Program-made: the position numbers and the translations under genes
Part shown: one piece after another, positions 3,353 through 24,171 of the stretch
How positions within the stretch are numbered: the stretch's first letter is position 1
Layout of the letters: each line of letters opens with the position of its first letter
The notes under the pieces: model-generated
What the model saw: the letters and a program-made list of their open reading frames with translations, nothing else
Told to the model about the DNA's origin: nothing
Database searches by the model: none
DNA from: an uncultured Dehalococcoidaceae bacterium
Lineage (GTDB): Bacteria > Chloroflexota > Dehalococcoidia > Dehalococcoidales > RBG-16-60-22
Assembly: GCA_964462865.1 (NCBI GenBank)
Contig: CAYWZO010000005.1
Coordinates: forward strand, 1 to 54,481
Length of the DNA stretch: 54,481 nt
Reading direction: 5' to 3'

Positions 3353-3366
3353 ATTTACATTTCAAT

Positions 3367-9215: not shown

Positions 9216-10496
9216 ATGAAGAAAGTAATGTTGTTAATCCTGACCGCCGTTCTCCTGTTAGCGGTGGTGGCCTGCAACCAGGCGGCGACGGCGGCGGAGG
9301 TGAAATCAAATATACCGCACGAAACGGCGCCGGCGACCAGTCCATCAGATTTAACCACTCTTGTCAACGGCAATAACGCTTTTGCCCTTAATCTTTACAA
9401 GCTATTGAGTAAAACCGACGGCAATATCTTTTATTCGCCGTACAGCATCTCGGAAGCCCTGGCGATGACCTACGGCGGCGCCCGCGGCGAGACCGAAAAG
9501 CAGATGGCTTCGGCGCTTCAGTTCCTGCTTTCGCAGGACAGGCTGCATCCTGCCTTTAACAGCATCGATATTGAGCTGGCGAAAAGGGGGGAGGTGGCTA
9601 AAGAGGGCAAGGACGAGAAAGGGTTCCGACTGAAAGTGGTCAACGCTATCTGGGGGCAGAAGGACTTTAAATTCGCCTCGGAGTACCTGGACTTGCTGGC
9701 CCGGAACTACGGGGCGGGGATGCGGATAGTCGATTATATCAACGCCGCCGAAAAGGCCCGGCAGACCATCAATCAGTGGGTCAGCGACCAGACCGAAGGC
9801 AGGATTGAAGACCTGCTGCCGCCGGGCTCCGTCGATTTCCTGACTAGGCTGGTGCTGACCAACGCCGTTTACTTCAACGCGGCCTGGGCCTCACAGTTTG
9901 AGGAGTCCGTTACTCGCGACGGCCGGTTCTATCTCCTGGACGGCGGTGAGGTCACCGTACCGATGATGTTCCAGATGAAATCGTTTAAATATGCCGAAGG
10001 CGCTGATTATCAGGCCGTGGAACTCCCTTACGATGGCTACCAGCTCTCCATGGTGGTCCTGCTGCCCAAGAATGGTCAATTCGAAGCTTTTGAAGCTAGC
10101 TTGGACAACCAGCAGTTGCAGGGGATAATCGGGCAGCTAAAGCCAAACCATGTCAATCTGACTATGCCCAGGTTCCAGATTGAGTCCGAGTTCAATCTGA
10201 AGCAGGCGCTCTCCGACCTGGGGATGCCGATAGCTTTCTCTGACTCCGAAGCGGATTTCTCCGGCATGGACGGCCGGCGAGACCTGTATATCACCGATGT
10301 CGTCCATAAGGCTTATGTCTCGGTGGATGAAAAGGGGACGGAGGCCGCCGCCGCTACCGGCGTAATCGTGGGGACGACCTCTATGCCGACGAATATCAAA
10401 GACATGACGCTGAACCGCCCTTACATCTTCCTTATCCGTGATATCCCCACCGGCACCATTCTCTTTCTGGGAAGGGTGATGAATCCGGTAGATTGA
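9216..10496 (+). CDS. Serpin family protein, predicted lipoprotein
   Basis: YSPYSIS, LTNAVYFNA, DEKGTEAAAATG hinge, NRPYIFLI, LFLGRV; signal peptide ending LAVVA-C; ATG 9216 after a GGAGG RBS. Confidence 0.95.
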   Translation: MKKVMLLILTAVLLLAVVACNQAATAAEVKSNIPHETAPATSPSDLTTLVNGNNAFALNLYKLLSKTDGNIFYSPYSISEALAMTYGGARGETEKQMASALQFLLSQDRLHPAFNSIDIELAKRGEVAKEGKDEKGFRLKVVNAIWGQKDFKFASEYLDLLARNYGAGMRIVDYINAAEKARQTINQWVSDQTEGRIEDLLPPGSVDFLTRLVLTNAVYFNAAWASQFEESVTRDGRFYLLDGGEVTVPMMFQMKSFKYAEGADYQAVELPYDGYQLSMVVLLPKNGQFEAFEASLDNQQLQGIIGQLKPNHVNLTMPRFQIESEFNLKQALSDLGMPIAFSDSEADFSGMDGRRDLYITDVVHKAYVSVDEKGTEAAAATGVIVGTTSMPTNIKDMTLNRPYIFLIRDIPTGTILFLGRVMNPVD

Positions 10497-10620: not shown

Positions 10621-11106
10621 TTATAAAAATGGCGGCTTGTAGTCCAGCCCCAACATTGAATGGACTTTTTTATATAGTTTTTCCAGGGAAGAGACGAGTA
10701 ATCTTTTTTCTTCATTGGATAATGAAGAGAAGGCCATGGTGATGGAATTTGTCGGCATCTTCTCGAACATATCACGCCCTTTTTCGGTTATCGATATTTG
10801 ATACTGTCTGGTTTCGGGTGTTTTGGCCCTGGCGACCAATTGGTTTCTTTCCATTCTCTTGATGATAGTGGATACGGAATTATGTTTTCTTAACACGTGA
10901 GTGGCTATTTCACTCATTGTCAGAGAACGGCCTGCTTCGTACATAATGCGGAGGATGTGGGATTGTTCACGGGTCAGGCCGTACCGGGTTAATTCCATCG
11001 TGCGAGCCCTGGCGATATACTCCATGGTATCGGCAAATAGTCCCCATATGGAGTAATCGTTTAATAAGCTCTCATTAAGAACATCAGTTTTTTGTTTCAT
11101 TCTCAC
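10621..11106 (-). CDS. MarR family transcriptional regulator
   Basis: YGLTREQSHIL, SLTMSEIA...VSTIIKRMERNQLVAR, ISITEKG winged HTH; start may be ATG 11100. Confidence 0.88.
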   Translation of the reverse strand: MRMKQKTDVLNESLLNDYSIWGLFADTMEYIARARTMELTRYGLTREQSHILRIMYEAGRSLTMSEIATHVLRKHNSVSTIIKRMERNQLVARAKTPETRQYQISITEKGRDMFEKMPTNSITMAFSSLSNEEKRLLVSSLEKLYKKVHSMLGLDYKPPFL

Positions 11107-11321: not shown

Positions 11322-12536
11322 TCAATTAATGATGCGTTTTTCTTTAAGTTTTTTGATTTCCTCATCGGAATAGCCTAATTCCCGGACAACGTCCTCCGTA
11401 TTCTCCCCGAAACGCGGTGCCGGGAGTTTAGCTTTCTCGTTGGTCAGGCTAAGCTTGACAGGATTGGACATTACCCTGATTTGACCATGTTTAGGATGAT
11501 TAAGAGGTGAGAAATGGTTGTTTGCTTCAGCCTGGGGGTCTTTAACCACTTCCGGGAGCGTCTGTATCGGGGCCCAGGGGAACCCCACTTCGGTCAGGAG
11601 AGGTTTCCATTCCTCCAGAGTTCTGGTAGGGAATGTCTGCTCTAAAGCGTCAAAAAGGGCCCCCACGTCGTGTTTTTCCGGCTGGCATGGATTCAACTTG
11701 GCATCATTTTCCCAATCCTCATGTCCCAGAGCGCGGCAGAACCTGGGCCAGTAAACGTCCTGCCGGGACATCATCAGGTACAGCCACCGGTTGTCTTTAG
11801 TACGGTAGATGTTCAATAGCGGTGTGCCGCGGTCTTTTCTGGATATAGCCTGCCTGTCTTTACCGGTGACCAGTGTCCCGGCGATATCGCTGGAAAGTAC
11901 GAAGACCAGACTGTTGAAGAGCGACACGTCAACTTCCTGGGCAATTCCGGTCTTCTCGCGGATTAGTAACGCTGTCATGATACCGTAGGCCAGTGTTACT
12001 CCGGTGATGAAATCCGCATAGGCGATTGGCGTCTGTACGGGCTCTGACCCAGGGACCTGGAGGATGTGGAGCAGCCCTGACCGGGAATCGCCGGCGGTAG
12101 GACCGAAACCAGGCTCATCTTTGTTCGGCCCTTTCCTCCCGAAGCCCGTCAGATTGCCGCAGATTAGCCTCGGATTGATTTTTTGCAGCGTTTTGTATTC
12201 CAGTTTGAACTTTTCCAGCTCGCGCGGGCGGAAATTATTCAGGAAAACATCAGCGCCTTCGAGCAGTTTGTAAAGGATAGCCCGTCCTTCTTCCTGGGCC
12301 AGGTCAAGGGCGATGCCGCGCTTATTGCAGTTAATATTTTGTTCCAGATAGTCAAAGTCCGCAGTTATCCTCCGCACATCACGTGTAGCGGGTGGCCGGT
12401 GCATCAAGCCTCCCCTGGTCGTCTGGTCAATATGGATGACCTCCGCTCCCCAGTCCGCCAGGAGACGGCCGACCATGGGAATAGCTACCGCGGAAGCCGC
12501 TTCAATTACTTTGATGCCTTCAATACCTGAACTCAT
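11322..12536 (-). CDS. Family III (CaiB/BaiF) CoA-transferase
   Basis: LADWGAEVIHI, NCNKRGIALDL, ADVFLNNFRP, YADF catalytic-Asp region, APRFGENT. Confidence 0.93.
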   Translation of the reverse strand: MSSGIEGIKVIEAASAVAIPMVGRLLADWGAEVIHIDQTTRGGLMHRPPATRDVRRITADFDYLEQNINCNKRGIALDLAQEEGRAILYKLLEGADVFLNNFRPRELEKFKLEYKTLQKINPRLICGNLTGFGRKGPNKDEPGFGPTAGDSRSGLLHILQVPGSEPVQTPIAYADFITGVTLAYGIMTALLIREKTGIAQEVDVSLFNSLVFVLSSDIAGTLVTGKDRQAISRKDRGTPLLNIYRTKDNRWLYLMMSRQDVYWPRFCRALGHEDWENDAKLNPCQPEKHDVGALFDALEQTFPTRTLEEWKPLLTEVGFPWAPIQTLPEVVKDPQAEANNHFSPLNHPKHGQIRVMSNPVKLSLTNEKAKLPAPRFGENTEDVVRELGYSDEEIKKLKEKRIIN

Positions 12537-12579: not shown

Positions 12580-13392
12580 TTATTCTGCGGATGTGCGGCC
12601 TGTTCCCGGATACAGCTTTTGTGCTATCAGGGCCGCTCCGGTAGCGCCGACAATCTGCGGCTCGAAGCAGATGTGTGCCTTGGTGCCCAGCTTGTCTTCA
12701 ATCCTTCGTACCACTCCGATATTTTTCGCAATTCCCCCCGAGATTACCAGGTCATCTTTAACCCCGGTTCGCTGGAGTAACAGGAGTATCCGCTGCACCA
12801 GGGCGTCGCAATAAGCTGCCAGGACGACGTTTCTCGGCAGGCCGCGCCGCAGCATCCGGAGGGCTTCCGATTTAGCGAAGACCACGCAGGCGCTGCCCAA
12901 TTGCGGCGGCTTTTCCTGAACATCGAGTGACATCGGGCCGATGTCTTCAAGACGTACGTCAAGCAGCTTGGCCATGACCTCCATGGACCGGCCCGTGCCC
13001 GCCGCGCATTTTTCGTTCATAACGAAGGAGGTAACTCTCCCGTTTTCATCGCAGCTCACGGCTTTACAGTCCTGCCCGCCCATGTCCAGCACCGTTCGTG
13101 CCCCGGGGAAGAAGTAATGGGCGCCGCGAGCGTGGCAGGTAATCTCCGTCACGTTTTTACTGGCATACGGTACCTGGTAGCGGCCGTATCCCGTCCCCAC
13201 CACGTATTTGATATCGTCCCGGGAAATATCGATTCCCTGTAACGCCAGGTCGAGTACCTTGTAAGACGTTTCTTTTTTATCAATCCCTACGTTTATATTA
13301 CTGAACGAGAGGATAGTGCCGTTTTTTAATATGACCGCCTGGGCGCTCGACGAGCCGACGTCGATACCGGCCGTAATTAATTCGTGTTTCAT
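12580..13392 (-). CDS. ASKHA ATPase activase, benzoyl-CoA reductase BzdQ-like
   Basis: GIDVGS, GTGYGR, TEITCHARGA, LDMGGQDCKA, MNEKCAAGTG, CVVFAKSE. Confidence 0.88.
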   Translation of the reverse strand: MKHELITAGIDVGSSSAQAVILKNGTILSFSNINVGIDKKETSYKVLDLALQGIDISRDDIKYVVGTGYGRYQVPYASKNVTEITCHARGAHYFFPGARTVLDMGGQDCKAVSCDENGRVTSFVMNEKCAAGTGRSMEVMAKLLDVRLEDIGPMSLDVQEKPPQLGSACVVFAKSEALRMLRRGLPRNVVLAAYCDALVQRILLLLQRTGVKDDLVISGGIAKNIGVVRRIEDKLGTKAHICFEPQIVGATGAALIAQKLYPGTGRTSAE

Positions 13393-13406
13393 CTCAAGTC
13401 CTTATG

Positions 13407-14183
13407 CTACAATGTCTGTTTATCACGGGCGGTCAGGGCCGCCCCGATAGCGGTGATGATGCGCGGCTCTTCGGGAACGATAACGGCCAGGCCGAGCTTT
13501 TGCCCCAGCAAATCGACGATGCTTGGGTTCCGGGCCACTCCCCCGATGAACAGGATATCTTTTTCAATCCTTAATTCCTGCAACAGCGAGGCCGCCTTGG
13601 CGGCGATGGCATCGCATACCGCCCGGGCGATATCGTCTTTATGGGATCCTTCGTTTATTAAGGAAATAACCTCGGATTCGGCGAAAATCGTGCAGGTGCT
13701 GTTCAGGGTTATCTTGTTTTTGGAGAGGAGTGAGGCCCGGCTGATGTCTGCCGCGGATAACTCCAGGATAGAGGCCATCTCGGTGATGAAAGCGCCGGCG
13801 CCGGCCGCGCACTGGTCGTTGCGGACGTACTGTAAAATCCGGCCCTCGCCGTCAAGCACCATGGCCTGGCTCTGCTCTGCACCGATGTCGATGACCGTCC
13901 TCGTCCCCGGGAAAAGCCATACCGCCCCTCTGGCGCTGCAGGTGGATTCCGTGGTATGGACGGTAGCCAGGGTAGCGCTTTCTTTCCCCATGCCGGTGGC
14001 CCCGACGTGAGTGATTTTCCCGGGGTCCAGGCAGGCTTTTTCGACTGCCTCATCGAAGGCGTTCTGTAACGATGCCTGCGTATCCCAGCCGCTGGGGACC
14101 ACGCTGTAAGCCAGCAGGCGGTCACCTTCGATAACCGCTACCTTGGTGTTTTCGGCACCTATATCTATTCCGGTACTTAACAT
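13407..14183 (-). CDS. ASKHA ATPase activase, benzoyl-CoA reductase BzdP-like
   Basis: GIDIGA, IDIGAEQ, RNDQCAAGAG, CTIFAESE; DIGAE variant as recalled for BzdP. Confidence 0.85.
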   Translation of the reverse strand: MLSTGIDIGAENTKVAVIEGDRLLAYSVVPSGWDTQASLQNAFDEAVEKACLDPGKITHVGATGMGKESATLATVHTTESTCSARGAVWLFPGTRTVIDIGAEQSQAMVLDGEGRILQYVRNDQCAAGAGAFITEMASILELSAADISRASLLSKNKITLNSTCTIFAESEVISLINEGSHKDDIARAVCDAIAAKAASLLQELRIEKDILFIGGVARNPSIVDLLGQKLGLAVIVPEEPRIITAIGAALTARDKQTL

Positions 14184-14219
14184 AATTATCCCCGGATTAC
14201 ATTATCGGCGGGATAAGGC

Positions 14220-15563
14220 TTACCCCTCCGTATCACTGTCTTTTTCATCGAGTGAGCTGATTTTCGTCAGGCCGAGACTCTCGAAGAAACGGCTGAAATC
14301 TTCTCTCACGCGGGCCTCATTCCATTCCTTGGGGTCGCCTTCGCTGGCCTCGTAGGTAGCCAGCGGTATGCCCGCCGCGCGGATGTCCTGTATTCTCGTG
14401 TAAATCCCCTGGCAAAGGGCGGCACAGCGGCGCGCCAGGTGCATCATAATGCCGTCAATATGCCAGTCCTCGACCATACGCAGAAAGTGAAGGAGTCGCC
14501 ACTCCGGCGCATCGAAGTCCACGCCATCCTCTTCGGGCGGGTAACGTTGCTCCACCAGCGCCTGCAGGGCGTCCTCCCGGTTTTTCAGTTCAATCCCTCG
14601 CTCTTCCAGTGTCTGGCCCGGCATCCGGTGGCCATCGGCGGTATGGCGGAAAGTCCCGAAGGCCATCATGAATTCGCCCTGGTTGAAGGCGGCGCCGTAC
14701 TCTTCTGGCCACCGCAGCAGGTCCGGCCGGTACAGGGGGTGCAGGCCTTCGTGGGCCAAACGCTTTTTCTCGAAAGGCGCCCCGGATATTTTGTCTTTCA
14801 CGCGCTGCTGAATCTCGTGGTAGAGACTTTCCATGTATTCCGCCGTCCCCCGGCTGTAGGCGTAGGTGACGAGGGGCAGGCGCAATGACATGGCCTGCCG
14901 GTAGCTCATCGGCGCGGGAATAGCCTTCATCAGCTCGCAGATTTTAGCCCACAACACCCGGGAGCGGATATCATATTTGGTAGCCTCGATGAAACGTTCG
15001 TCGTCAAACTTGAGCTTGGTGCGTTTTTCAATCCACTCGATAACGTAGGAGAGCTGGGAAAGGAGATAATTACGGGTGTTGGCGGTATTTTTGGGCGGCG
15101 CCTCGATGACGAGCATGGGCAGGCCCAGTAAATCGGCGCATATCTGCCCTCCCTTATACTGCGCGTGGCAGCCCTGGGGCTGGAAAACAAAATCGGGCAT
15201 CATCTGCTTGCCTGATGAACCCCCGAACGAGGTCCCGGCGTACACCTGCCCCAGATGCGCCGCGATGGCCCCGCAGACCGGGGTCAAACCGCTGCCTTCC
15301 GCCAGGTTAACGAACTTTACCAGTCCTTCCGACCCGGCTCCCTCCCGTGCGATTCGTGTGAAATCCGTACCGGGTGAAGGATTGCCGAAATTACCGAAAC
15401 CGGCCAGCAGGGGAAGATATCCCCAGGCGAAACCGGTGACGCAGAGCCCGCCCTTGGTCTGGGCTTCAAAGGACAGCTTGTAACGCTCCCTCCGGAGCTC
15501 TTTCATCCGCATCCATACTTCGTCAGAAAAGGCCCTTGTCTCAAAATCCGGCTTTGTTTCCAT
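14220..15563 (-). CDS. 2-hydroxyacyl-CoA dehydratase family subunit, divergent BzdO-like
   Basis: 447 aa; PVCG, QGCH, WHIDGIMMHLARRC, YEASEGDP; lies between the N-like and P-like genes. Confidence 0.78.
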   Translation of the reverse strand: METKPDFETRAFSDEVWMRMKELRRERYKLSFEAQTKGGLCVTGFAWGYLPLLAGFGNFGNPSPGTDFTRIAREGAGSEGLVKFVNLAEGSGLTPVCGAIAAHLGQVYAGTSFGGSSGKQMMPDFVFQPQGCHAQYKGGQICADLLGLPMLVIEAPPKNTANTRNYLLSQLSYVIEWIEKRTKLKFDDERFIEATKYDIRSRVLWAKICELMKAIPAPMSYRQAMSLRLPLVTYAYSRGTAEYMESLYHEIQQRVKDKISGAPFEKKRLAHEGLHPLYRPDLLRWPEEYGAAFNQGEFMMAFGTFRHTADGHRMPGQTLEERGIELKNREDALQALVEQRYPPEEDGVDFDAPEWRLLHFLRMVEDWHIDGIMMHLARRCAALCQGIYTRIQDIRAAGIPLATYEASEGDPKEWNEARVREDFSRFFESLGLTKISSLDEKDSDTEG

Positions 15564-15607
15564 ATCATTACTTCCTTTGCTAACAGGTGATTAGCCTGGC
15601 TGTTATT

Positions 15608-16732
15608 TCATATGGCCGTGAGCATTTCCAGGAAAGCCTCGATGCGGGTACGGAATTGGCCCACGGGCACGGTGTAGTCCAGTTCGAGCTTGAGCATGGG
15701 GACGCCCTTTTCCTTGAAAAAAGATTCTACAGCCGGGTAGTCCAGGCCGTGGGCGTCGCATTGCCGCTGCATGGTGTAGATGGCCCCCTGGACTTTATAA
15801 TCGTTGATGAGCCTGGCATAGTGGTTGAGCCGCCACCTTTCTGGCAAATCATGCAAAGGGCATGGTGGCTTGTCAACCAGCCGGGCGGCGATGGCAGCCA
15901 GCCGGTCATCTTCCGGGACAACCTCCGTCTGGTAATAGCGGTTGCCCGTGCAGTAATCGTCGATGACCACCCGGCCCCCCAGGGAATCGATGAACCGGAT
16001 AAGTTCGATGTTATTGTTCACGCTGCCGAGGAGCATGAGCCTGGGGCCTTGCCGGGCTACACCGGCACGTTGCGGGATTTCTTTTATAGCTGCTTCGAGG
16101 AGGTGGTTGTGCTCTTCCCGGTCCATGAGCATCCCGGCCAGGGTTATTTCGGCCACCTCCGCCTCGGTCAGCGGCGGGGTGTCAGCTTGCATCGTGGCGG
16201 TAATTTTAGCCACCAGCTGGCGGTTCAGATTGTAGATATTTATTGCCCTGTCAATAGCCTCGCCGGTGATTGGCTTCCCCGTCCATTTCTCCAGCGATGC
16301 CTGGCACTCTACCAGCTCCCGGGCAAGGTACTCCTTGGCATACGGATTCTGCAGGCACATCGGCGAATGAATTTCATAACTATAGGCCACGGGTACGTGA
16401 CGCTGCCAGTCCAGGAATACCTCCCGGGCGTGCGGGCAGCATTGTGAGAAAATGATACCATCAATGTAGTCGTAACGACCCTGGAGGGCCTGCGCGAAGC
16501 AATCGCGGGCAAAGGAGCAAAAGGCCGCCTGAAAGATGTACGGCCGGGTGATATTCTCCGGTTCGTTGGTCCCCAGGAGGCGGACCGGAAGGATACCGGC
16601 AGCATAAATCAGTTCTTCCGGCAGGTTCGAGCACAGCGCCCCGATGACTCTGCCGCCCGTTTTCGATTTCCAGTCTCGCGCGGACTGGTGGGGATTCGTC
16701 ACGATAGCGTGAAATTCATCGAAAATACTCAT
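15608..16732 (-). CDS. 2-hydroxyacyl-CoA dehydratase family subunit, BzdN-like
   Basis: WKSKTGGRVIG, PEELIYAAGILPVR, FCSFARD, DDYCTGNRY, QRQCDAHGLD. Confidence 0.87.
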   Translation of the reverse strand: MSIFDEFHAIVTNPHQSARDWKSKTGGRVIGALCSNLPEELIYAAGILPVRLLGTNEPENITRPYIFQAAFCSFARDCFAQALQGRYDYIDGIIFSQCCPHAREVFLDWQRHVPVAYSYEIHSPMCLQNPYAKEYLARELVECQASLEKWTGKPITGEAIDRAINIYNLNRQLVAKITATMQADTPPLTEAEVAEITLAGMLMDREEHNHLLEAAIKEIPQRAGVARQGPRLMLLGSVNNNIELIRFIDSLGGRVVIDDYCTGNRYYQTEVVPEDDRLAAIAARLVDKPPCPLHDLPERWRLNHYARLINDYKVQGAIYTMQRQCDAHGLDYPAVESFFKEKGVPMLKLELDYTVPVGQFRTRIEAFLEMLTAI

Positions 16733-16789: not shown

Positions 16790-17785
16790 TTAATTATCCG
16801 CGTTAACCTCTCCGTCCCTGGTAAAAAGTAAACACGCCACAAAATGCCCTGGACTCACTTCTTTCATCGCCGGGGCGGTCTGCGAACAAATCGGCATGGC
16901 GCTGGCGCACCGCGGGTGAAAGGCGCAACCGCCGGGAGGATTAATGGGACTGGGCACCTCACCGGGGAGGATATTCCTGGTCCTCTTGGCATCCGGGTTA
17001 TCGGGCAGGCTGGCAGCCAGCAGGGCCTTGGTGTAGGGGTGCAGCGGGTTACGGCTTAACTCCCGGCTGGTGGTGTTTTCCACGATTTTTCCCAGGTACA
17101 TCACGCTGATCCGGTGGCTCATGTATTTGACCGTGGCCAGGTCATGGGCGATAAATAGGTAGCTGATACCCATATTGTTTTGCAGGTCTTTGAGGATGTT
17201 CATCAATTGCGCGCGGATGGAAACATCCTGCGAAGATACCGGCTCGTCAAGGATAATAAGACGTGGATTGGATACCAGTGCCCTGGCGATGGCAATCCTC
17301 TGCCTTTGCCCGCCGCTGAATTCATGGGGGTATTTACGGGCATCGTTGGGGTCCAGGCCGGCCGCCAGCAGCGCTGCCTCCACCCTGTTCCTGACATCTT
17401 TTTTATCGGTTTTCACGCCGGTGGTAATCGGCTCGCTGATGATGCTGCCAACGTGCATTCTCGGGTCCAGCGAGGAAAGGGGATTTTGAAAGACCGCCTG
17501 GACACTGTGGCGGTATCGCTTGAGGTCTTCTCCGGAAAAACCCCGCAGGTCCTTACCTTTGAATTCGATAAGACCATCGGTCGGTGGCTCCAGCAGAAGC
17601 ACGAGCTTGCTTAAAGTGGTCTTGCCACAGCCTGATTCGCCGAGCAGTCCGAGAGTCTCCCCGTCGCCGATACGTATATCCACCCCGTCAACGGCTTTGA
17701 TCCACCCCAGTGTCTTGGCAAAGAGGAGTCCCTTGGTCACCGGGTAATATTTTTTAACGCCCTTGGTCTCCAGTATCGTTTCCAT
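16790..17785 (-). CDS. Dipeptide/oligopeptide-type ABC transporter ATP-binding subunit (DppF/OppF-like)
   Basis: GESGCGKTT, FSGGQRQRI, ILDEP, HPYT, GCAFHPRC; start ATG 17785 overlaps the upstream TAA. Confidence 0.93.
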   Translation of the reverse strand: METILETKGVKKYYPVTKGLLFAKTLGWIKAVDGVDIRIGDGETLGLLGESGCGKTTLSKLVLLLEPPTDGLIEFKGKDLRGFSGEDLKRYRHSVQAVFQNPLSSLDPRMHVGSIISEPITTGVKTDKKDVRNRVEAALLAAGLDPNDARKYPHEFSGGQRQRIAIARALVSNPRLIILDEPVSSQDVSIRAQLMNILKDLQNNMGISYLFIAHDLATVKYMSHRISVMYLGKIVENTTSRELSRNPLHPYTKALLAASLPDNPDAKRTRNILPGEVPSPINPPGGCAFHPRCASAMPICSQTAPAMKEVSPGHFVACLLFTRDGEVNADN

Positions 17786-18774
17786 TATTGCTGTCCCTGT
17801 GCTTGCCAGCATCTGGCATAATGGTCCGGTCCTACCTGTCTCAAAGGAGGCACTTCGCGGTGGCAGCCCTCGTTGGTCTGGGAACAACGCGGTGCAAAGC
17901 TGCACCCCTCGGGCACCCTGTCGAGCCTGGGCGGCTGTCCCTTGATGGAGACCAGTCTTTCGGTCTCCTTCTCCAGTTTGGGGACTGCCTTGAGTAGAGC
18001 TGCGGTGTACGGATGGACCGGCCGGAAGAAAATGTCCCTTACCGGGGCGGTTTCCACCACCTTGCCGGCGTACATCACGGCCACGCGGTCGCACATCGAA
18101 GCTACAATCCCGAAATCATGGGTAATGAATATCAACGACATCCCGAATTCATCCTGAAGGTCTTTGAGGAGTTGCAGGTATTGTGCCTGGATGGTCACAT
18201 CCAGAGAAGTGGTTGGTTCGTCAGCAATCAGCAAACGCGGGTGACAGGAGATGGATATGGCGCCAACAACCCGCTGCTTCATGCCCCCGCTCATCTGGTG
18301 GGGATAATCGCGGAGGCGTGCCTCGGGAGAGGGTATCTTCACGCGTTTGAGCATGTCAATGATTCTCGATGCGAGGTCTATCTTTTTAACTCGGGTATGC
18401 GTGGTGATGGCCTCGCCTATCTGGTCGCCGATATTGAACACCGGATTCAAGGACGCCATCGGGTCCTGCAAAATCATGGATATTTTTCTCCCGCGGAGCT
18501 TTTGCACCTGCTTTTCCGTCATCTTTAAAATATCTTCACCCTCGAAGAGGATTTGCCCGCCCACGATGTTACCGGCGGGCCGGGGCAATAATCTCAATAT
18601 GGAAAGCGAGGCCACGGTCTTGCCGCACCCTGATTCACCCACAATGCCCAGGGTCTCATTTTCATCAACGTGAAAACTGACTCCATCCACAGCTTTGACC
18701 GTAGAGTACGGTGTAATAAAATAAGATTTCAGGTCAATTACATCTAGCAACCGTTTCCCCAAAATTTCCTCCAC
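17785..18774 (-). CDS. Dipeptide/oligopeptide-type ABC transporter ATP-binding subunit (DppD/OppD-like)
   Basis: GESGCGKT, MSGGMKQR, IADEPTT, HPYT, GCSFAPRC. Confidence 0.93.
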   Translation of the reverse strand: MEEILGKRLLDVIDLKSYFITPYSTVKAVDGVSFHVDENETLGIVGESGCGKTVASLSILRLLPRPAGNIVGGQILFEGEDILKMTEKQVQKLRGRKISMILQDPMASLNPVFNIGDQIGEAITTHTRVKKIDLASRIIDMLKRVKIPSPEARLRDYPHQMSGGMKQRVVGAISISCHPRLLIADEPTTSLDVTIQAQYLQLLKDLQDEFGMSLIFITHDFGIVASMCDRVAVMYAGKVVETAPVRDIFFRPVHPYTAALLKAVPKLEKETERLVSIKGQPPRLDRVPEGCSFAPRCSQTNEGCHREVPPLRQVGPDHYARCWQAQGQQ

Positions 18775-18784
18775 AAGCTTTTTT

Positions 18785-19660
18785 CTAACGCCGGTGTATC
18801 AACGGGTTAAGCCAGTCGTTGAGCGCATCCCCCAGCAGGTTAAAGGTCAGCACGGTTAAAGCGATGGCAATGCCCGGAATGATACAGAGCCACCAGGCGG
18901 TAACGATGTATGACCTGCCTTCGGACACCATCGAACCCCAGTCGGCGGTGGGCGGCGGGATACCGACACCCAGAAAACTCAACGAGGCCTCGACGATAAC
19001 AATCGTACCTACCTGAAGGGTCGCCAGGATAATAATCGGACTGACGACGTTCGGGAATATATGGCGCGTCATGATACTTGCCCGGGAGCAGCCGGCAATC
19101 TTGGCCAGGGCAATAAAATCGAACTCTTTGACCTTTAGTGTCTCGGCCCTGGCCATCCTGGCGTAGCCGGCCCAGAGTGTAAAGCTGATTATCATGACCA
19201 GTATCTGAAAACTCGGCCCGAAGATAGCCCCCAGGAGCAGGGCCAGCAGTATGGCCGGCAGTGAAAAAACCAGGTCTACCGCTCTCATGATGATGATGTC
19301 GGCCCAGCCGCCGATATAGCCGGCGATGATGCCCAGGAGGGTCCCCAGGGTGCCGGCGATGATGACCACCAGGGCGCATACCGAGAGCGTCGTCCTGGCG
19401 CCGAAGATGATACGGCTTAATATGTCCCTGCCGAGCGTGTCGGTTCCCAGGGGGAAATCAGACCTGCCGCCTTCCTGCCAGACCGGCGGTAGCAGGCGGT
19501 TGTCCAGCACGCCGACATTGGGGTCGTGAGGCGCGACCCATGGCGCCAGTAGCGCCGTCAGTATTAATATCAGTCCGATAATGCTGAATATTATAACTGT
19601 CGGGCTAAGGCGTATTTTCCTACCTTTTACGTTCTTTTCATTTAATTGTATGTCGCTCAT
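18785..19660 (-). CDS. ABC transporter permease (DppC/OppC-like)
   Basis: LGTDTLGRDILSR, RHIFPN, EASLSFLGVG, DWG. Confidence 0.93.
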   Translation of the reverse strand: MSDIQLNEKNVKGRKIRLSPTVIIFSIIGLILILTALLAPWVAPHDPNVGVLDNRLLPPVWQEGGRSDFPLGTDTLGRDILSRIIFGARTTLSVCALVVIIAGTLGTLLGIIAGYIGGWADIIIMRAVDLVFSLPAILLALLLGAIFGPSFQILVMIISFTLWAGYARMARAETLKVKEFDFIALAKIAGCSRASIMTRHIFPNVVSPIIILATLQVGTIVIVEASLSFLGVGIPPPTADWGSMVSEGRSYIVTAWWLCIIPGIAIALTVLTFNLLGDALNDWLNPLIHRR

Positions 19661-19711
19661 AGGCTATTCTCGGGCCTGTTATATCATTCGTTCTTTTTCT
19701 TGAGCCGTTTT

Positions 19712-20632
19712 TTACGTATATCTGATACGAGGGTCGACATAGGCGTACAATATATCAACAACTAGGTTCGCGGTAACGAACATAAAGGTGATGAAAAGTA
19801 CCACCGCCTGAATCATGGGGAAATCCCGGGTGGAGACCGCTTCCCAGGCCAGGCGGCCCAGTCCCGGCCAGGCGAATATCGTCTCGATAACCACCACCCC
19901 GGTCATCAGTCCTGTCAGCAGCGTACCGAGAAATGTCAGCACCGGTATCAGGCTGTTGCTGAAGGCGTGCTTCCAGATGACCAACCTTTCGTCCAGCCCC
20001 TTGATTCTGGCCAGCTTAACGTACTCCCCGCTCAAGACATCCAGCATGCTAGAACGCGTCAGGCGGACGATGCCCGCTAAGGATATTCCGCTTAAAGCTA
20101 CCGCCGGCAAAATTATCTGCTTGAAGCTGCCGTAACCGGAGGTGGGCAGCAGGCGGAATTGCACGCTGATAACGTACATCAGGACGATACCGACCCAGAA
20201 AGCCGGCATGGACTGTCCCAGCATCGCCAGCACCCTGCCTGCGGTGTCCAGAAACGACCCACGGCGCACAGCGGAAATTACCCCTATCGGTATGCCGATG
20301 ATAATACTCAAGAGCATGGCGGCGACAGCCAGTTGAAAAGAAGCCGGTATCCTCTCCACGATCTGGTCCACCACCGGACGGCGCGCGCCCCGGATTGACC
20401 TGCCGAGGTCTCCCTGCAGCGCCTTTTTCAAGAAGATGGCGTATTGAACCGGTATTGGTTTGTCCAGCCCTAGTTCCCTGGTTACCAGCTCGACATCTTC
20501 CTTGGTGGCGAGGTCACCCAGCAACAGGGGTACCGGGTCGCCGCTCAATCTTCCCAGAAGGAAGACGATAATGCTCATCAGGAAGATGGTTATAATCGCC
20601 TGAATAATACGTTTGATAAGATATCGCTGCAT
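19712..20632 (-). CDS. ABC transporter permease (DppB/OppB-like)
   Basis: GDLGRS, SMPAFW, TRSSMLDVL...ARIKGL, ETIFAWPGLG, DPRIR. Confidence 0.93.
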   Translation of the reverse strand: MQRYLIKRIIQAIITIFLMSIIVFLLGRLSGDPVPLLLGDLATKEDVELVTRELGLDKPIPVQYAIFLKKALQGDLGRSIRGARRPVVDQIVERIPASFQLAVAAMLLSIIIGIPIGVISAVRRGSFLDTAGRVLAMLGQSMPAFWVGIVLMYVISVQFRLLPTSGYGSFKQIILPAVALSGISLAGIVRLTRSSMLDVLSGEYVKLARIKGLDERLVIWKHAFSNSLIPVLTFLGTLLTGLMTGVVVIETIFAWPGLGRLAWEAVSTRDFPMIQAVVLFITFMFVTANLVVDILYAYVDPRIRYT

Positions 20633-20939: not shown

Positions 20940-22649
20940 CTATTGCGCTTTGGTAATCTGGTCGAAGTTCGTGGGATAGTTGGTGATAGTCGGCCAGCTC
21001 CCGATTACCGGGTTGACGGCGTAGGGTTCCTCGGCGCTGATCAGGAAGATAAAAACAGCCTCGTCGGTAAGGTAGTCATAGATATCTTTTAATAACGCGA
21101 GCCTCTTGGCGGAGTCCGGCTCACTAAGGGCCGCGTCCGACATCTTATCGAGCTCCGGCGTGGTAAATATCGCGAACACGCTTTTATCCGTATAAGCCGC
21201 CGTCAGACCGCCCGGGTCGTCCAGAGCAATGGGTGCCCCATAGGTGTGGGTCCAGAACATGTTCTGGGCTTTCGCTCCGGTCCAGGATGCCCTGATAGTG
21301 GGATAGTCGGTCGGTATTATTTTTACATTAATACCTACGGCTTCCCAATAGGTAGCAACCGCCAATCCGATATCAGGGAGTTGCGCGCCTGGATTTCTGG
21401 CACAGGTGTAAAAAGTTACATCGAAACCATTGGGATAGCCTGCATCGGCTAACATTTGCTTTGCCTTAGCTTCGTTGTAGGGGTATGCCGGTGCTGCCTG
21501 GTCGACGAAATTGTGTGGATTGAAGTTGGACCTGGCCGCGCCGTGGAAAATGTTCCTGGCAATAGCGTCTTTATCGACAGCGTAGTTCAGGGCCTGGCGG
21601 ACTTCCTTTTTAGCCCAGGGGGCCGTTGGGTTATAACGAACAGGGTCGGTCTCCACCAGGCCGCCCATTAAGATTCTCGGCGCCCAGGAGTCTTTCTGGG
21701 CGAGGATGTTGAATTTTGAGGCCTTGACCGTATTGACGGAGTCCAGGCTGATGGGGGCCATATCGGCCTCGCCGACTTTCAGCATCGCCACCCGGGTTGA
21801 TTCCTCCGGTACGCCGTAAAAGATAATATCCTTAAATTCCGGGGTGACGCGCCAGTGGTTTTCCACGCCGGGAACGGTGGTTACTTTAATCGATACGCCG
21901 CGTTTATGTTCGGCCAGGGTATAGGCGCCGGTCCCGATGGGGTGAGAATCAGCCCTTTCATCACCCACCTGCTCAACGTACTTCTTACAGACGATATGGT
22001 TGGAAATGGTATTGGAAAGCCTGTTCCAGAACGTAAAGTCGGCGGTGTTAAGTTTAAAGACGGCCGTATATTTATCAGGGGTTTCGACGGTAAGATCAAA
22101 GGAGCGGAAAGTTGATGCTTGGGCTGCCTTGGAAGCAGGTTCAATTTGTCGTTCGAAAGTGTACTTGACGTCCGCGGATGTCAATTCGCCCCAGTTTTCA
22201 TGGAATTGAATGCCTTCCCGCAGCTTGATGGTCCAGGTCTTGCCGTCAGGCGTCATTTCCCAGGACTTTGCCAGACCGGGCAGGGGCAGTTTGGTGGCGG
22301 GGTCCAAGTAAAGCAGGTACTCGAAAATTGTATCGATGTAGAATTTCCGCCCTGAAGCACCGTTCCAGGGCAGGAAAGTCTCGTCCTCCAGACCGGGCAT
22401 GGCTACCTTTAAAACACCGGTGGGGGACTTCTTCGCCGCGGTAGGGGCGGTAGTGGTTGCCGGCGTCGTCTTCGGAGTGGTGGCCGTGGGTGTGGTGGTC
22501 GCCGCTGGTGTGGTGGTTACGACTGGTTTCGTGGTGGTTGCCGGAGCGGTCGTTGTCTCGGTTGTTTTACAGGAACCGACCAGGAGCATGAAGACCGTCA
22601 TCAGGATTAAGGCAAGACTACAGGCAAGGACTAACTTGTTTCTCTTCAT
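20940..22649 (-). CDS. Family 5 ABC substrate-binding lipoprotein with Thr/Pro-rich linker
   Basis: Lipobox LVGS-C; PGLAKSWE, LREGIQFH, PIGTGAY, VRQALNYAVD, AKQMLADAGYPNGF. Confidence 0.92.
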   Translation of the reverse strand: MKRNKLVLACSLALILMTVFMLLVGSCKTTETTTAPATTTKPVVTTTPAATTTPTATTPKTTPATTTAPTAAKKSPTGVLKVAMPGLEDETFLPWNGASGRKFYIDTIFEYLLYLDPATKLPLPGLAKSWEMTPDGKTWTIKLREGIQFHENWGELTSADVKYTFERQIEPASKAAQASTFRSFDLTVETPDKYTAVFKLNTADFTFWNRLSNTISNHIVCKKYVEQVGDERADSHPIGTGAYTLAEHKRGVSIKVTTVPGVENHWRVTPEFKDIIFYGVPEESTRVAMLKVGEADMAPISLDSVNTVKASKFNILAQKDSWAPRILMGGLVETDPVRYNPTAPWAKKEVRQALNYAVDKDAIARNIFHGAARSNFNPHNFVDQAAPAYPYNEAKAKQMLADAGYPNGFDVTFYTCARNPGAQLPDIGLAVATYWEAVGINVKIIPTDYPTIRASWTGAKAQNMFWTHTYGAPIALDDPGGLTAAYTDKSVFAIFTTPELDKMSDAALSEPDSAKRLALLKDIYDYLTDEAVFIFLISAEEPYAVNPVIGSWPTITNYPTNFDQITKAQ

Positions 22650-22792: not shown

Positions 22793-24013
22793 TCAGATTA
22801 CTTTTTCTTCTTTAAACTGCGTAATATCATCCCAACTGTACCCCCCAAGCTCCTGAAGCACCTCCTCGGTATGCTGGCCGAACTCCGGCGCCGGGCTCTG
22901 GACACCCGCCGGTGTAGTGTGGAATTTTACCGGACATCCTACCGTTTTTATTCTTCCGAGTGAAGGCTGCTCGTATTCCACGACGTATTTGTTATCCAGA
23001 ATCTGCGGGTCATCGGCCACATCCAGTCCCTCGTTGATGGGAGAAAACATGATGCGATGATATTTGCCCACGATTTCCACCCACTCGTCGCGCGGTTTGG
23101 TAGCAAAGACTTGGTCTAAAATATCTATCAATTCCCGGCAGTTTTTCGCCCTGGCCGGGGTGCTTTCGAACTTCGGGTCCTTTTCAAGATTTTCGATGCC
23201 GGCGGCCTTACAAAAATCCGGCCATACCCTGTCCGTGGCCAGGATGCAGAAACTGATCCATTTGCCGTCCTTACATTTGTAATGATTGGCGAGGGGATTG
23301 CTGACTGATTTCCTGTCTTCCCGAAGGAGTTCCTTCTTGTAAAAAAAGGTGTTGGTCAGTCTGACATGCTGGAGCGCGACCATGGAGCCGGTGATGGAAA
23401 TATCGATTTCCTGGCCGATTCCCAGCCTTTCCCGGGCCAGCAGCGCCGCTAATATGCCGTCAACGGCGATAATTGAAGTCATATGGTCGGCCATGGCCCC
23501 GCCCACTGCCGCCGGTTCCCCGAGGAGCGCCGTCTGGTTGGTCATGAAGCCGGAACGTGCCTGGCCCACATAGTCATTGCCGCGGCGCCAGTTGTCCGGC
23601 CCGTCAGGGCCAAGGCTGGATATATTGGCGTAAATTATCTTGGGATTGTATTGGGAAATCGTCTTGTAATCTAAATTCGCACGGTCACGCACGGACTGCC
23701 TGAAGTTCTGCAGAAAAACATCGCACTTTTGCACGAGCCGGTATATTATTTCCTTGCCTTTAGGTGTGGTGACGTCTACGGTGATGCACTTTTTATTACG
23801 GTTCACGCCGGTATACATGAATTCTCTCTCGGCGGTGGTGCGTCCCGTCGCCATCCCTTCCAGCCGCGTGATGCCGCGGCTGGGGTCGCCGACGACGGGT
23901 TGTTCGATCTTGATTACTTCCGCGCCCATATCTCCGAGCATCATGGTTGCCCCCGGGCCCGCCAGCCATATTGCCCACTCTAAAATACGGATACCATCTA
24001 AAGGTTTAGCCAT
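22793..24013 (-). CDS. Family III (CaiB/BaiF) CoA-transferase
   Basis: LGDMGAEVIKIE, NRNKKCIT, DVFLQNFR, MADH, APEFGQHT. Confidence 0.93.
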   Translation of the reverse strand: MAKPLDGIRILEWAIWLAGPGATMMLGDMGAEVIKIEQPVVGDPSRGITRLEGMATGRTTAEREFMYTGVNRNKKCITVDVTTPKGKEIIYRLVQKCDVFLQNFRQSVRDRANLDYKTISQYNPKIIYANISSLGPDGPDNWRRGNDYVGQARSGFMTNQTALLGEPAAVGGAMADHMTSIIAVDGILAALLARERLGIGQEIDISITGSMVALQHVRLTNTFFYKKELLREDRKSVSNPLANHYKCKDGKWISFCILATDRVWPDFCKAAGIENLEKDPKFESTPARAKNCRELIDILDQVFATKPRDEWVEIVGKYHRIMFSPINEGLDVADDPQILDNKYVVEYEQPSLGRIKTVGCPVKFHTTPAGVQSPAPEFGQHTEEVLQELGGYSWDDITQFKEEKVI

Positions 24014-24140: not shown

Positions 24141-24171
24141 ACATCATATACTATATAGAATATGATGTCAA
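24141..24171 (-). promoter_or_regulatory. Near-consensus sigma70 promoter overlapped by a 28-bp palindromic operator
   Basis: Minus strand TTGACA (24171-24166)-17 nt-TATGAT (24148-24143); palindrome ACATCATATACTATATAGAATATGATGT (24141-24168) is 26/28 self-complementary. Confidence 0.8.

What the first reader, a model, noticed from the sequence alone, without database searches (positions are those of the whole stretch)
12580..16732. Class I benzoyl-CoA-reductase-like quartet with a strongly divergent O subunit
Seen: order N-O-P-Q with two separate activases (DIGAE and DMGGQ types). Compared from memory, N, P and Q resemble Bzd subunits closely while O does so only weakly. No ferredoxin or dch/had/oah genes are in the window. 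Inference: a non-benzoyl substrate or a new reaction. Alternative: a 2-hydroxyacyl-CoA dehydratase for amino-acid fermentation, since a peptide-type ABC, pepA, CoA-transferases and a 2-hydroxyacid dehydrogenase are all in this window.
Basis: partly seen in the sequence, partly recalled or inferred. Interest (0 to 1): 0.6.

Follow-up and report, generated by a model that had tools for sequence, protein, structure and literature searches.

The report
Bzd-like reductase with rebuilt active site
A salt-marsh Dehalococcoidia bacterium carries a four-gene, ATP-driven iron-sulfur reductase built like benzoyl-CoA reductase, but its catalytic subunit lacks every residue that enzyme uses to reduce benzoyl-CoA, so it probably acts on a different, still unknown CoA-bound acid.

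Summary
Four co-oriented genes at 12580-16732 (minus strand) encode BzdN-, BzdO-, BzdP- and BzdQ-type proteins. All score below NCBI's equivalog cut-offs, and O is the most divergent.

- **Conserved parts:** N keeps all six cysteines of the [8Fe-9S] double cubane. P and Q carry the BzdP (D-I-G-A-E) and BzdQ (D-M-G-G-Q) signatures. O keeps its three cluster cysteines and models as a BzdO fold (TM 0.87-0.90).
- **Lost parts in O:** Glu65, His131, Tyr97, Gln274, Tyr298 and Glu381 are absent. These are invariant in the canonical BzdO sequences examined, a 48-member clade from many phyla. The glutamate is also present in MbdO and HadB.
- **Phylogeny:** O sits in a rare, separate clade; an AU test rejects union with canonical BzdO.
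- **Context:** the clade is linked to two family III CoA-transferases (0 of 44 canonical loci have one). In this genus an ABC importer and a MarR with a conserved operator also belong to the block. No dch/had/oah gene was found in the genome.

Best reading: an ATP-driven low-potential reductase of a non-benzoyl acyl-CoA, in an accessory uptake, CoA-transfer and reduction cassette. The substrate and exact chemistry are unknown. It is a new variant of a known kind.

The parts
24141..24171 (-). Promoter-like site (TTGACA-17-TATGAT, 11 of 12) overlapped by a 28-bp palindrome; probable operator and start of the operon
   Evidence: The palindrome is kept upstream of the CoAT2 orthologue in G002 (23/28) and L140 (26/28). 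A terminator-like hairpin at 24343-24331 separates it from the upstream glycyl radical enzyme gene.
22793..24013 (-). CoAT2, family III CoA-transferase (406 aa)
   Evidence: PF02515 355 bits. Below all NCBIfam equivalog cut-offs. The nearest solved relatives act on dicarboxylates (SUGCT, Frc, BbsF). It is 73-91 % identical next to N-O in G002, L033, L140 and L148.
20940..22649 (-). Family 5 solute-binding protein (569 aa) of the ABC importer
   Evidence: PF00496 218 bits. Weak hits only to NikA/GsiB/DppA. Syntenic in G002 and L140. L033 has a 27 %-identical orphan SBP_bac_5 in the same place.
16790..20632 (-). Dpp/Opp-type ABC permeases (19712-20632, 18785-19660) and ATPases (17785-18774; 16790-18094 as the longest ORF, whose true start is probably near 17790)
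   Evidence: Pfam BPD_transp_1, ABC_tran and oligo_HPY. NCBIfam alignments of the last ATPase begin at residue ~102. Syntenic in G002 and L140.
15608..16732 (-). N: BzdN-type subunit with a predicted [8Fe-9S] double cubane (374 aa)
   Evidence: 8S02_B E 7.5e-94. Cys34/72/99/261/291/325 match BzdN Cys36/73/100/263/293/327. Arg53, Arg267, His330, Gln324 and Ser239 are kept; Arg290 is Lys.
14220..15563 (-). O: BzdO-fold catalytic subunit with a remodelled, apolar active site (447 aa)
   Evidence: 8S02_A E 1.7e-48. AF2 pLDDT 91, TM 0.87-0.90 to 8S02. Cys97/132/380, Trp47, Gln128 and Leu383 are kept. Glu65, His131, Ser44, Tyr97, Gln274, Tyr298 and Glu381 are replaced by Gly/Thr, Gln, Phe, Ala, Leu, Phe and Ala.
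13407..14183 (-). P: BzdP-type ATPase subunit (258 aa)
   Evidence: PF01869; CoA_E_activ 200 bits. D-I-G-A-E-Q and N-D-Q-C-A-A-G-A-G motifs are shared with canonical BzdP, and both cluster cysteines are present.
12580..13392 (-). Q: BzdQ-type ATPase subunit (270 aa)
   Evidence: bzdQ 288 bits (cut-off 380). D-M-G-G-Q-D-C-K and C-A-A-G-T-G-R are identical to canonical BzdQ, and both cluster cysteines are present.
11322..12536 (-). CoAT1, second family III CoA-transferase (404 aa), about 30 % identical to CoAT2
   Evidence: PF02515 319 bits; PDB neighbours. It lies next to N-O/NOPQ in G002, L033, L138-L140, L145, L147, L148, L151 and L154.
10621..11106 (-). MarR-family regulator (161 aa) with its own promoter-like site at 11226-11198
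   Evidence: PF12802/PF01047; promoter scan. Orthologues flank the cassette in G002, L140 and L033.

Best explanation
The quartet is an ATP-driven, low-potential iron-sulfur reductase of the Bzd (class I benzoyl-CoA reductase) architecture. It belongs to an uncharacterised clade that acts on a CoA thioester other than benzoyl-CoA. Proposed flow: an organic acid is imported by the family 5 SBP/ABC system; one or both family III CoA-transferases load it onto CoA and probably recycle CoA from the product; a reduced ferredoxin encoded elsewhere reduces the bridging [4Fe-4S] of the P-Q heterodimer; ATP hydrolysis drives electrons into the [8Fe-9S] double cubane of N and on to the three-Cys [4Fe-4S] of O, where the acyl-CoA sits in a pocket without protic side chains. 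The Glu/His proton relay and the Tyr/Tyr/Gln thioester clamp are gone. I therefore favour chemistry in which the substrate interacts directly with the open iron site, such as ketyl-type reductive elimination or reduction of a hydrophobic unsaturated or aromatic acyl group, over the Birch-type protonation described for BzdO. MarR represses the operon at the conserved palindrome until the acid or its CoA ester appears. Shown: gene content, cofactor-binding residues, loss of catalytic residues, phylogenetic separation and conserved gene linkage. Inferred: electron path, CoA recycling, regulation and type of reaction. Unknown: the substrate.
For: Bzd-type architecture: gene order N-O-P-Q and best family hits. 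N keeps six of six double-cubane Cys and their surroundings. P and Q carry BzdP- and BzdQ-specific motifs and both cluster Cys. The O model matches BzdO best. CoA substrate: the K-E-L-R stretch of O aligns with the start of the helix (residues 15-32) that PMC11971306 describes as contacting CoA in BzdO, and CoA-transferases are adjacent in every sufficiently long orthologous contig. Not benzoyl-CoA: Glu65, His131, Tyr97, Gln274, Tyr298 and Glu381 are invariant in all canonical BzdO sequences tabulated (a 48-member clade) and absent here. The glutamate also aligns with Glu in MbdO and HadB. The clade is separate with 100 % SH-aLRT support and union with canonical BzdO is rejected (AU p 1.1e-8). 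0 of 44 canonical loci against 5 of 11 divergent loci have a family III CoA-transferase within 6 kb. No dch/had/oah gene is above cut-off in the genome. Operon and regulation: promoter, palindrome and its conservation.
Against: There are no biochemical or expression data; no RNA holder is listed. Residue mapping rests on sequence alignments to one crystal structure. A compensating acid or base from elsewhere cannot be excluded without coordinates (candidates: His133, His275, Tyr278, Glu74, Asp67). Thauera-type BCRs are only about 25 % identical to BzdNO yet reduce benzoyl-CoA (PMC11971306), so low identity alone proves nothing. The family III CoA-transferase plus HGD-D pattern is, from my recollection of the literature, also that of the Fld/Had dehydratases. 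In more distant clade members the ATPase genes are not adjacent, or only a P-type gene is (L145, L147, L148, L154), so ATP stoichiometry is open. No ferredoxin gene lies in the operon.
Confidence: 0.5

Rival explanations
1. It is a radical eliminase of the 2-hydroxyacyl-CoA dehydratase type. P-Q injects one electron catalytically. O forms a ketyl radical on a 2-substituted acyl-CoA made by the CoA-transferase and eliminates water or another leaving group. The product CoA ester hands CoA back to fresh substrate, as in the Fld and Had systems.
For: The family III CoA-transferase plus HGD-D heterodimer plus ATPase pattern recalls fldAIBC and hadAIBC (my recollection of the literature; gene content). 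The O pocket is apolar and lacks His131, as reported for HadB (PMC11971306). P's best solved match is the HadI activator. Some clade members have only a P-type ATPase next to O (L153, L154).
Against: N keeps the full six-Cys double cubane, which HAD enzymes have lost according to PMC11971306. P and Q are a BzdP/BzdQ-type heterodimer, not one homodimeric activator. The Glu that aligns with HadB's Y-P-E-N-Q is missing. No 2-hydroxyacid dehydrogenase or acyl-CoA dehydrogenase/ETF gene lies in the conserved block, and the window's 2-Hacid_dh operon at 46-49 kb is not within 20 kb of the quartet in G003. Overall sequence and fold are closer to BzdO (180 bits, TM 0.87-0.90) than to HadB (44 bits, TM 0.76).
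Confidence: 0.22
2. It is a true benzoyl-CoA (or simple substituted benzoyl-CoA) reductase whose active site has drifted, with proton delivery taken over by other residues or by water.
For: The N-O-P-Q order and the best hits of all four subunits are Bzd. Trp46, Leu383 and Gln124 are kept. Marine Dehalococcoidia Bzd-like genes are read as BCR in the literature (PMC5736913). A MarR regulator and aromatic-metabolism genes lie nearby.
Against: All six protic active-site residues are lost although they are invariant in the canonical BzdO sequences examined across many phyla. All three models that scored are below their equivalog cut-offs. The AU test rejects grouping with canonical BzdO. No dch/had/oah gene is above cut-off in the genome. 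No CoA ligase lies in the operon, only CoA-transferases, and no canonical locus has those.
Confidence: 0.08
3. It is a DCCP-like reductase of a small, non-CoA molecule, and the CoA-transferases are merely neighbours.
For: N scores 173 bits on the double-cubane reductase model. The physiological substrates of DCCPs are unknown (PMC11971306).
Against: O has only three cluster Cys and scores 35 bits on that model. The K-E-L-R stretch that aligns with BzdO's CoA-contacting helix is kept. Linkage with the CoA-transferases holds across 49-88 % identical orthologues despite rearrangement.
Confidence: 0.05

Closest known systems
[quoted passage not shown] CIB (BzdNO structures 8S02/8S1T/8S2R; PMC11971306)
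   Same: Same gene order. N has the six-Cys [8Fe-9S] site. O has the three-Cys [4Fe-4S] site, Trp46 and the BzdO fold (TM 0.87-0.90). P and Q carry the BzdP and BzdQ motifs.
   Different: Identity is only 32-51 %. O lacks Glu65, His131, Ser44, Tyr97, Gln274, Tyr298 and Glu381. It has CoA-transferases instead of a CoA ligase. No ferredoxin gene lies in the operon and no dch/had/oah gene above cut-off was found in the genome. It forms a separate clade.
(R)-2-hydroxyisocaproyl-CoA dehydratase HadBC with activator HadI and CoA-transferase HadA (Clostridioides difficile; 3O3M, 4EHT)
   Same: HGD-D alpha/beta pair; apolar surroundings of the catalytic cluster; a family III CoA-transferase in the operon (the HadA family assignment is from my memory, not checked here); P's best solved match is HadI.
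   Different: The N subunit keeps a double cubane. There are two different ATPase subunits. The Glu that aligns with HadB Y-P-E-N-Q is missing. Identity to HadB is only about 17 % in the fold alignment. No dehydrogenase or ETF partners are present.
3-methylbenzoyl-CoA reductase MbdONPQ of Thauera chlorobenzoica (9G87, 9GAI)
   Same: An ATP-dependent class I aryl-CoA reductase with a non-benzoyl preferred substrate. Q's best solved match is MbdQ.
   Different: It is of the Thauera type. O matches MbdO only by fold (TM 0.77, 18 % identity). MbdO keeps the glutamate.
Double-cubane cluster protein DCCP with its reductase DCCP-R (6ENO, 7YYL)
   Same: ATPase-driven electron delivery to an [8Fe-9S] cluster, as predicted for N.
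   Different: DCCP is a homodimer with a double cubane in each subunit and no CoA substrate. Here only N has it.
[quoted passage not shown]
   Same: A class I BCR-like, ATP-dependent enzyme acting on a non-benzoyl aryl-type CoA ester.
   Different: It is embedded in a 22-gene beta-oxidation-like operon with a ferredoxin. Its sequences could not be fetched here, so relatedness was not tested.

Membership tests
Bzd-type class I benzoyl-CoA reductase (BzdNOPQ) | Four genes in the order N-O-P-Q: two HGD-D subunits and two BcrAD_BadFG ATPases | tested here: met
Bzd-type class I benzoyl-CoA reductase (BzdNOPQ) | Scores above the NCBIfam equivalog cut-offs (TIGR03190 bzdN, TIGR03191 bzdO, TIGR03192 bzdQ) | tested here: not met
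   317 of 454, 180 of 449 and 288 of 380 bits.
Bzd-type class I benzoyl-CoA reductase (BzdNOPQ) | N subunit with six Cys ligands of the [8Fe-9S] double cubane | tested here: met
   All six Cys plus Arg53, Arg267 and His330 are aligned.
Bzd-type class I benzoyl-CoA reductase (BzdNOPQ) | O subunit with three Cys ligands of the catalytic [4Fe-4S] | tested here: met
   Cys97, Cys132 and Cys380.
Bzd-type class I benzoyl-CoA reductase (BzdNOPQ) | Catalytic Glu65 and His131 next to the Fe-bound water | tested here: not met
   Gly65/Thr66 and Gln135 in two independent alignments. Both residues are invariant in all canonical sequences tabulated.
Bzd-type class I benzoyl-CoA reductase (BzdNOPQ) | Thioester-oxygen clamp Tyr97, Gln274, Tyr298 | tested here: not met
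   Ala99, Leu274 and Phe298.
Bzd-type class I benzoyl-CoA reductase (BzdNOPQ) | Heterodimeric BzdP/BzdQ ATPase with a bridging-cluster Cys pair in each subunit | tested here: met
   P- and Q-specific motifs and both Cys are shared with canonical loci.
Bzd-type class I benzoyl-CoA reductase (BzdNOPQ) | O groups with characterised BzdO in a tree | tested here: not met
   Separate clade. The AU test rejects union, p 1.1e-8 on a 44-row subset, but the group was named after seeing the tree.
Bzd-type class I benzoyl-CoA reductase (BzdNOPQ) | Pathway partners dch, had and oah | tested here: not met
   No dch/had/oah gene is above cut-off in the 90 %-complete genome. CoA-transferases take the place of a ligase in the operon. 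A benzoate-CoA ligase and a BzdM-type ferredoxin were not searched for genome-wide.
Bzd-type class I benzoyl-CoA reductase (BzdNOPQ) | ATP-dependent reduction of benzoyl-CoA to the 1,5-dienoyl-CoA | not testable with these tools
   Needs an anaerobic enzyme assay.
2-hydroxyacyl-CoA dehydratase (Hgd/Had/Fld/Lcd) | HGD-D alpha/beta heterodimer | tested here: met
   PF06050 on N and O.
2-hydroxyacyl-CoA dehydratase (Hgd/Had/Fld/Lcd) | Beta subunit with a single [4Fe-4S]-type cluster; double cubane lost (PMC11971306) | tested here: not met
   N keeps all six double-cubane Cys.
2-hydroxyacyl-CoA dehydratase (Hgd/Had/Fld/Lcd) | Alpha-subunit glutamate (HadB Y-P-E-N-Q) at the position of BzdO Glu65 | tested here: not met
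   Profile alignment to 3O3M_A. The window's own HAD-like alphas keep P-E, while O has G-T-D.
2-hydroxyacyl-CoA dehydratase (Hgd/Had/Fld/Lcd) | One homodimeric activator gene | tested here: not met
   Two different ATPase genes of BzdP and BzdQ type.
2-hydroxyacyl-CoA dehydratase (Hgd/Had/Fld/Lcd) | Operon partners: 2-hydroxyacid dehydrogenase and acyl-CoA dehydrogenase/ETF | tested here: not met
   Absent from the conserved block in the window, G002, L033 and L140. The distant 2-Hacid_dh gene is not syntenic.
Double-cubane cluster protein (DCCP) | Double cubane in every subunit; NF040772 above 350 bits | tested here: not met
   N 173 bits, O 35 bits. O has only three cluster Cys.

The most novel reading that the evidence does not exclude
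The clade represents a third kind of chemistry in the BCR/HAD radical-enzyme family. It keeps the Bzd-type ATP-driven double-cubane electron engine, but its catalytic subunit has lost the glutamate found in BzdO, MbdO and HadB and all protic pocket residues. It would perform a so far undescribed low-potential reaction on a CoA ester supplied by a dedicated pair of CoA-transferases, for example reductive C-O or C-X cleavage, or reduction of a non-benzoyl ring or unsaturated system. It would be one of many such specialised N-O modules that have radiated in Dehalococcoidia.
Probability: 0.4. Interest if true: 0.8.

Novelty: new variant of a known kind. Interest (0 to 1): 0.6.

Why it matters
Class I benzoyl-CoA reductases and 2-hydroxyacyl-CoA dehydratases are the two reaction types established for CoA esters in this ATP-driven iron-sulfur family. 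The first BzdNO structure (2025) now allows active sites to be read from sequence. Read that way, this enzyme keeps the electron-delivery machinery but has none of the catalytic residues. So do a whole group of Dehalococcoidia paralogues that metagenomic studies routinely annotate as benzoyl-CoA reductase, taken as evidence of anaerobic aromatic degradation. That has two consequences. Such annotations in sediment Chloroflexota need revisiting. The compact cassette (importer, two CoA-transferases, reductase, MarR with a defined operator) also offers a tractable route to a new low-potential reaction and its substrate.

Tried and rejected
- Contexts came from the genome search, genome contigs and metagenome contigs instead.
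- **Technical failures:** alignment A1 was too diverse for a locus scan and too large for a family scan. The AU test on the full 99-row tree did not finish in three tries and was rerun on 44 rows under LG+G4.
- **Expression:** no RNA holder is listed for the stretch, and read laying was not used. The DNA holders are marsh and salt-marsh metagenomes only.
- **Uninformative searches:** the ESM Atlas gave only generic HGD-D clusters. No paper on the MbdONPQ structures was found, and none describes this clade.
- **Rejected links:**
  - The glycyl radical enzyme is absent from G002 and G003 and is separated from the operon by a terminator-like hairpin and a promoter-like site.
  - The MR_MLE gene (mandelate racemase/muconate-lactonizing enzyme family) and the 2-Hacid_dh/family I CoA-transferase operon have no synteny with the quartet.
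  - pepA is absent near the quartet in G003.
- **Substrate clues:** the CoA-transferases and the SBP gave only weak leads (dicarboxylate-type CoA-transferase relatives; NikA/GsiB-like SBP) and no assignment.
- **Not tested:** relatedness to ThnBCDE, because its sequences could not be fetched.

Full report
**What is there.** The interval 12580-16732 holds four tightly spaced minus-strand genes.
- N: 15608-16732, 374 aa.
- O: 14220-15563, 447 aa.
- P: 13407-14183, 258 aa.
- Q: 12580-13392, 270 aa.

N and O are HGD-D family proteins; P and Q are BcrAD_BadFG ATPases. The best NCBIfam models are the Bzd-type benzoyl-CoA reductase subunits, but none of the four reaches an equivalog cut-off: bzdN 317 of 454 bits, bzdO 180 of 449, bzdQ 288 of 380 for Q, and P only 119 bits on the bzdQ model. 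Against solved structures, N matches BzdN (8S02_B, E 7.5e-94) and O matches BzdO (8S02_A, E 1.7e-48).

**Electron-delivery parts are conserved.** I used the residue numbers published with the BzdNO structure (PMC11971306).
- N keeps all six cysteines of the [8Fe-9S] double cubane. Window Cys34/72/99/261/291/325 correspond to BzdN Cys36/73/100/263/293/327.
- N also keeps Arg53, Arg267, His330, Gln324 and Ser239; Arg290 is Lys.
- The same holds for nearly all of the 74 N partners of O-like genes from every clade examined.
- P and Q each keep the two cysteines of the bridging [4Fe-4S].
- P carries D-I-G-A-E-Q and C-A-A-G-A-G; Q carries D-M-G-G-Q-D-C-K and C-A-A-G-T-G-R. These are exactly the features that separate canonical BzdP from BzdQ in Aromatoleum, Rhodocyclus and other canonical loci.

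**The catalytic subunit is remodelled.** O keeps the three [4Fe-4S] cysteines (Cys97, Cys132, Cys380), Trp46, Gln124 and Leu383. An AlphaFold2 model (pLDDT 91, pTM 0.91) matches BzdO best, with TM 0.87-0.90. HadB follows at 0.76-0.85 and MbdO at 0.77. Two independent alignments (HMMER to 8S02_A; MAFFT of 99 sequences) agree on these replacements:

| BzdO residue | Role given in PMC11971306 | In O |
|---|---|---|
| Glu65 | proposed proton donor | Gly65/Thr66 |
| His131 | contacts the Fe-bound water | Gln135 |
| Ser44 | hydrogen-bonds Glu65 | Phe45 |
| Tyr97 | thioester-oxygen clamp | Ala99 |
| Gln274 | thioester-oxygen clamp | Leu274 |
| Tyr298 | thioester-oxygen clamp | Phe298 |
| Glu381 | contacts the cluster | Ala381 |

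The glutamate is not only a BzdO feature. In a profile alignment it is also present in MbdO (F-P-E-I-N) and HadB (Y-P-E-N-Q). It is also present in the two HAD-like alpha subunits of the same genome. The O clade therefore lacks a residue shared by both characterised reaction types of the family.

**Phylogeny.** The tree has 99 O-like proteins (IQ-TREE, LG+C20, rooted on the genome's own HAD-like alphas).
- Canonical BzdO forms a tight 48-member clade with 100 % SH-aLRT support. It includes Aromatoleum, Rhodocyclus, Sulfuritalea and Rhodoferax, and members of more than ten phyla.
- Every canonical sequence tabulated shows the invariant signature [S/G]-A-W, E65, Y97, Q124 (Thr in one), H131, Q274, Y298, L302, E381-G-L.
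- The window's O lies in a 12-member clade (100 % support, stem 0.51) inside a 35-member, Dehalococcoidia-dominated group (99 %). That group has almost uniformly lost the relay and the clamp.
- Forcing the clade together with canonical BzdO costs 204 log-likelihood units (AU p 1.1e-8). This used a 44-row subset under LG+G4, and the group was named after seeing the tree.
- Canonical O is more conserved than canonical N between phyla: 61-70 % against 53-60 % identity to Aromatoleum. For the window the order flips, with O at 32-34 % and N at 40 %.

N, P (37 %) and Q (51 %) are not 'close' either.

**Distribution.**
- Orthologues with at least 50 % identity are rare. About 40 clusters at 90 % identity exist, from Chloroflexota/Dehalococcoidia and Thermodesulfobacteriota metagenomes. 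They fall into a single 50 % cluster among 1.84 billion representatives.
- Two of four congeners have an orthologue (G002 at 89 %, G003 at 83 %). G001 and G004, 91-94 % complete, gave none with this query.
- One other species representative has one: Dehalococcoidia W403, locus L033, at 56 %.
- None of 400 sampled class members exceeded 41 %.
- In G003 the cassette is a remnant. Only the C-terminal half of the last ABC ATPase and the N-terminal half of CoAT1 flank an intact NOPQ.
- The stretch is held only by marsh and salt-marsh metagenomes.

**Context.** In the window the genes run CoAT2, SBP, four ABC genes, N-O-P-Q, CoAT1, MarR.
- They follow a near-consensus promoter-like site (24171-24143) that is overlapped by a 28-bp palindrome (24141-24168). 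A terminator-like hairpin lies just downstream of the preceding glycyl radical enzyme gene.
- The same block and palindrome occur in G002, where it is flanked by GroEL instead of the radical enzyme, and in metagenome contig L140.
- L033 has MarR, an orphan SBP_bac_5, CoAT2, NOPQ and CoAT1.
- More distant clade members keep N-O next to one or both CoA-transferases in other orders: N-O-CoAT2-CoAT1 in L148, CoAT2-CoAT1-N-O in L151, N-O-CoAT1 in L145.
- Those distant members often lack adjacent ATPase genes, or have only a P-type one (L154).

Across all fetched loci with at least 3 kb of flank:

| Group | Family III CoA-transferase within 6 kb | ATPase genes directly downstream |
|---|---|---|
| Canonical | 0 of 44 | 43 of 44 |
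| Divergent 35-member group | 5 of 11 | 1 of 11 |

The two transferases are about 30 % identical to each other. Both are below every equivalog cut-off, and their nearest solved relatives act on dicarboxylates (SUGCT, Frc, YfdE, BbsF).

The genome has no dch, had or oah gene above cut-off and no canonical BCR. Its other HGD-D systems (a trio on contig C10, a second quartet on C15, a single gene on C7) are uncharacterised HAD/DCCP-like members. The window's pepA, 2-hydroxyacid dehydrogenase, family I CoA-transferase, MR_MLE (enolase-superfamily) and radical-enzyme genes are not syntenic with the quartet elsewhere.

**Interpretation.** The machinery that stores and energises electrons is intact and of Bzd type. 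This favours a net, ATP-coupled reduction over a catalytic one-electron dehydratase cycle. The K-E-L-R stretch that aligns with BzdO's CoA-contacting helix, together with the obligatory CoA-transferases, points to an acyl-CoA substrate. That substrate would be made from an imported acid and released again by CoA transfer. The complete loss of protic residues in O argues against the water/Glu/His-mediated Birch-type mechanism and against benzoyl-CoA as substrate.

I therefore commit, at about 0.5, to an ATP-driven reductase of a different and probably hydrophobic acyl-CoA. The chemistry would occur at or directly on the open iron site. A HAD-like eliminase is the main rival (about 0.2), and a drifted true BCR is unlikely (below 0.1). 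The substrate cannot be named from these data.

**Comparison with the literature and novelty.** Bzd-like genes and benzylsuccinate-CoA-transferase-like pairs in marine Dehalococcoidia have been read as benzoyl-CoA reductase and aromatic-acid activation (PMC5736913; PMC4959651). The residue-level reading possible since the 2025 BzdNO structure shows that this clade, and many Dehalococcoidia paralogues, cannot be equated with BCR. I found no paper describing the clade. I rate it a new variant of a known kind, with interest 0.6.

**Limits.** There are no expression or biochemical data. ThnBCDE and BcrB references could not be placed in the tree.

Noticed in passing
Loci L034-L057, L067-L094 and L113-L137 (marine Dehalococcoidia MAGs ETNP2_MAG_23, Arabian11_MAG_76, SCS2bin.13, BS2bin.63, B4_bin.11; handles G108, G131, G150, G168, G185, G202): Some 1.6-3.3 Mb Dehalococcoidia genomes carry many paralogous Bzd-like N-O pairs. 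Five to eight appear per MAG among the best loci, and the first look found 30-52 candidates per genome. Almost all lack adjacent P/Q genes. N always keeps the double-cubane Cys, while the O pocket differs from clade to clade. This suggests a radiation of substrate-specific N-O modules served by shared ATPases.
   Followed up: partly
L094, L074, L091, L107 (O-like genes): One clade has His at the Glu65 position and Glu at the His131 position, an apparent swap of the acid/base pair. It keeps Tyr97 and Tyr298.
   Followed up: no
G003:C1 about 1016600-1022100 (L015/L016): A congener keeps intact NOPQ but only the C-terminal half of the last ABC ATPase and the N-terminal half of CoAT1, with no CoAT2, SBP or permeases. 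The cassette appears to be decaying or rearranged.
   Followed up: partly
Own genome G000:C15:26882-31160, C10:31199-34378, C7:1441-2475 and C7:33427-35121: Three further BCR/HAD-family systems are present: a second alpha-beta-ATPase-ATPase quartet, an alpha-beta-activase trio, and a lone HGD-D gene. A 1481-aa ORF elsewhere on C7 holds two ATPase domains. None reaches any equivalog cut-off.
   Followed up: partly
window 46086-48966 (-): A D-2-hydroxyacid dehydrogenase gene is followed by a family I CoA-transferase alpha/beta pair. This looks like a separate hydroxyacid-activation operon.
   Followed up: partly
window 49381-51972 (+) and 28443-31118 (+): Two AhtL-like (pyrogallol hydroxytransferase-type) molybdoenzymes lie in one window. 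The window also holds MoeA/MobA/MobB cofactor genes at 2705-5225 and a corrinoid methyltransferase set at 31129-33963.
   Followed up: no
window 9075-10496 (+): A 473-aa serpin with an N-terminal extension of about 95 residues lies next to the cassette. A 52 %-identical serpin lies next to the remnant cassette in G003.
   Followed up: no
window 16790-18094 (-): The longest ORF of the last ABC ATPase overlaps the preceding ATPase gene by about 310 nt. Family alignments start at residue ~102, so the true start is probably near 17790.
   Followed up: no
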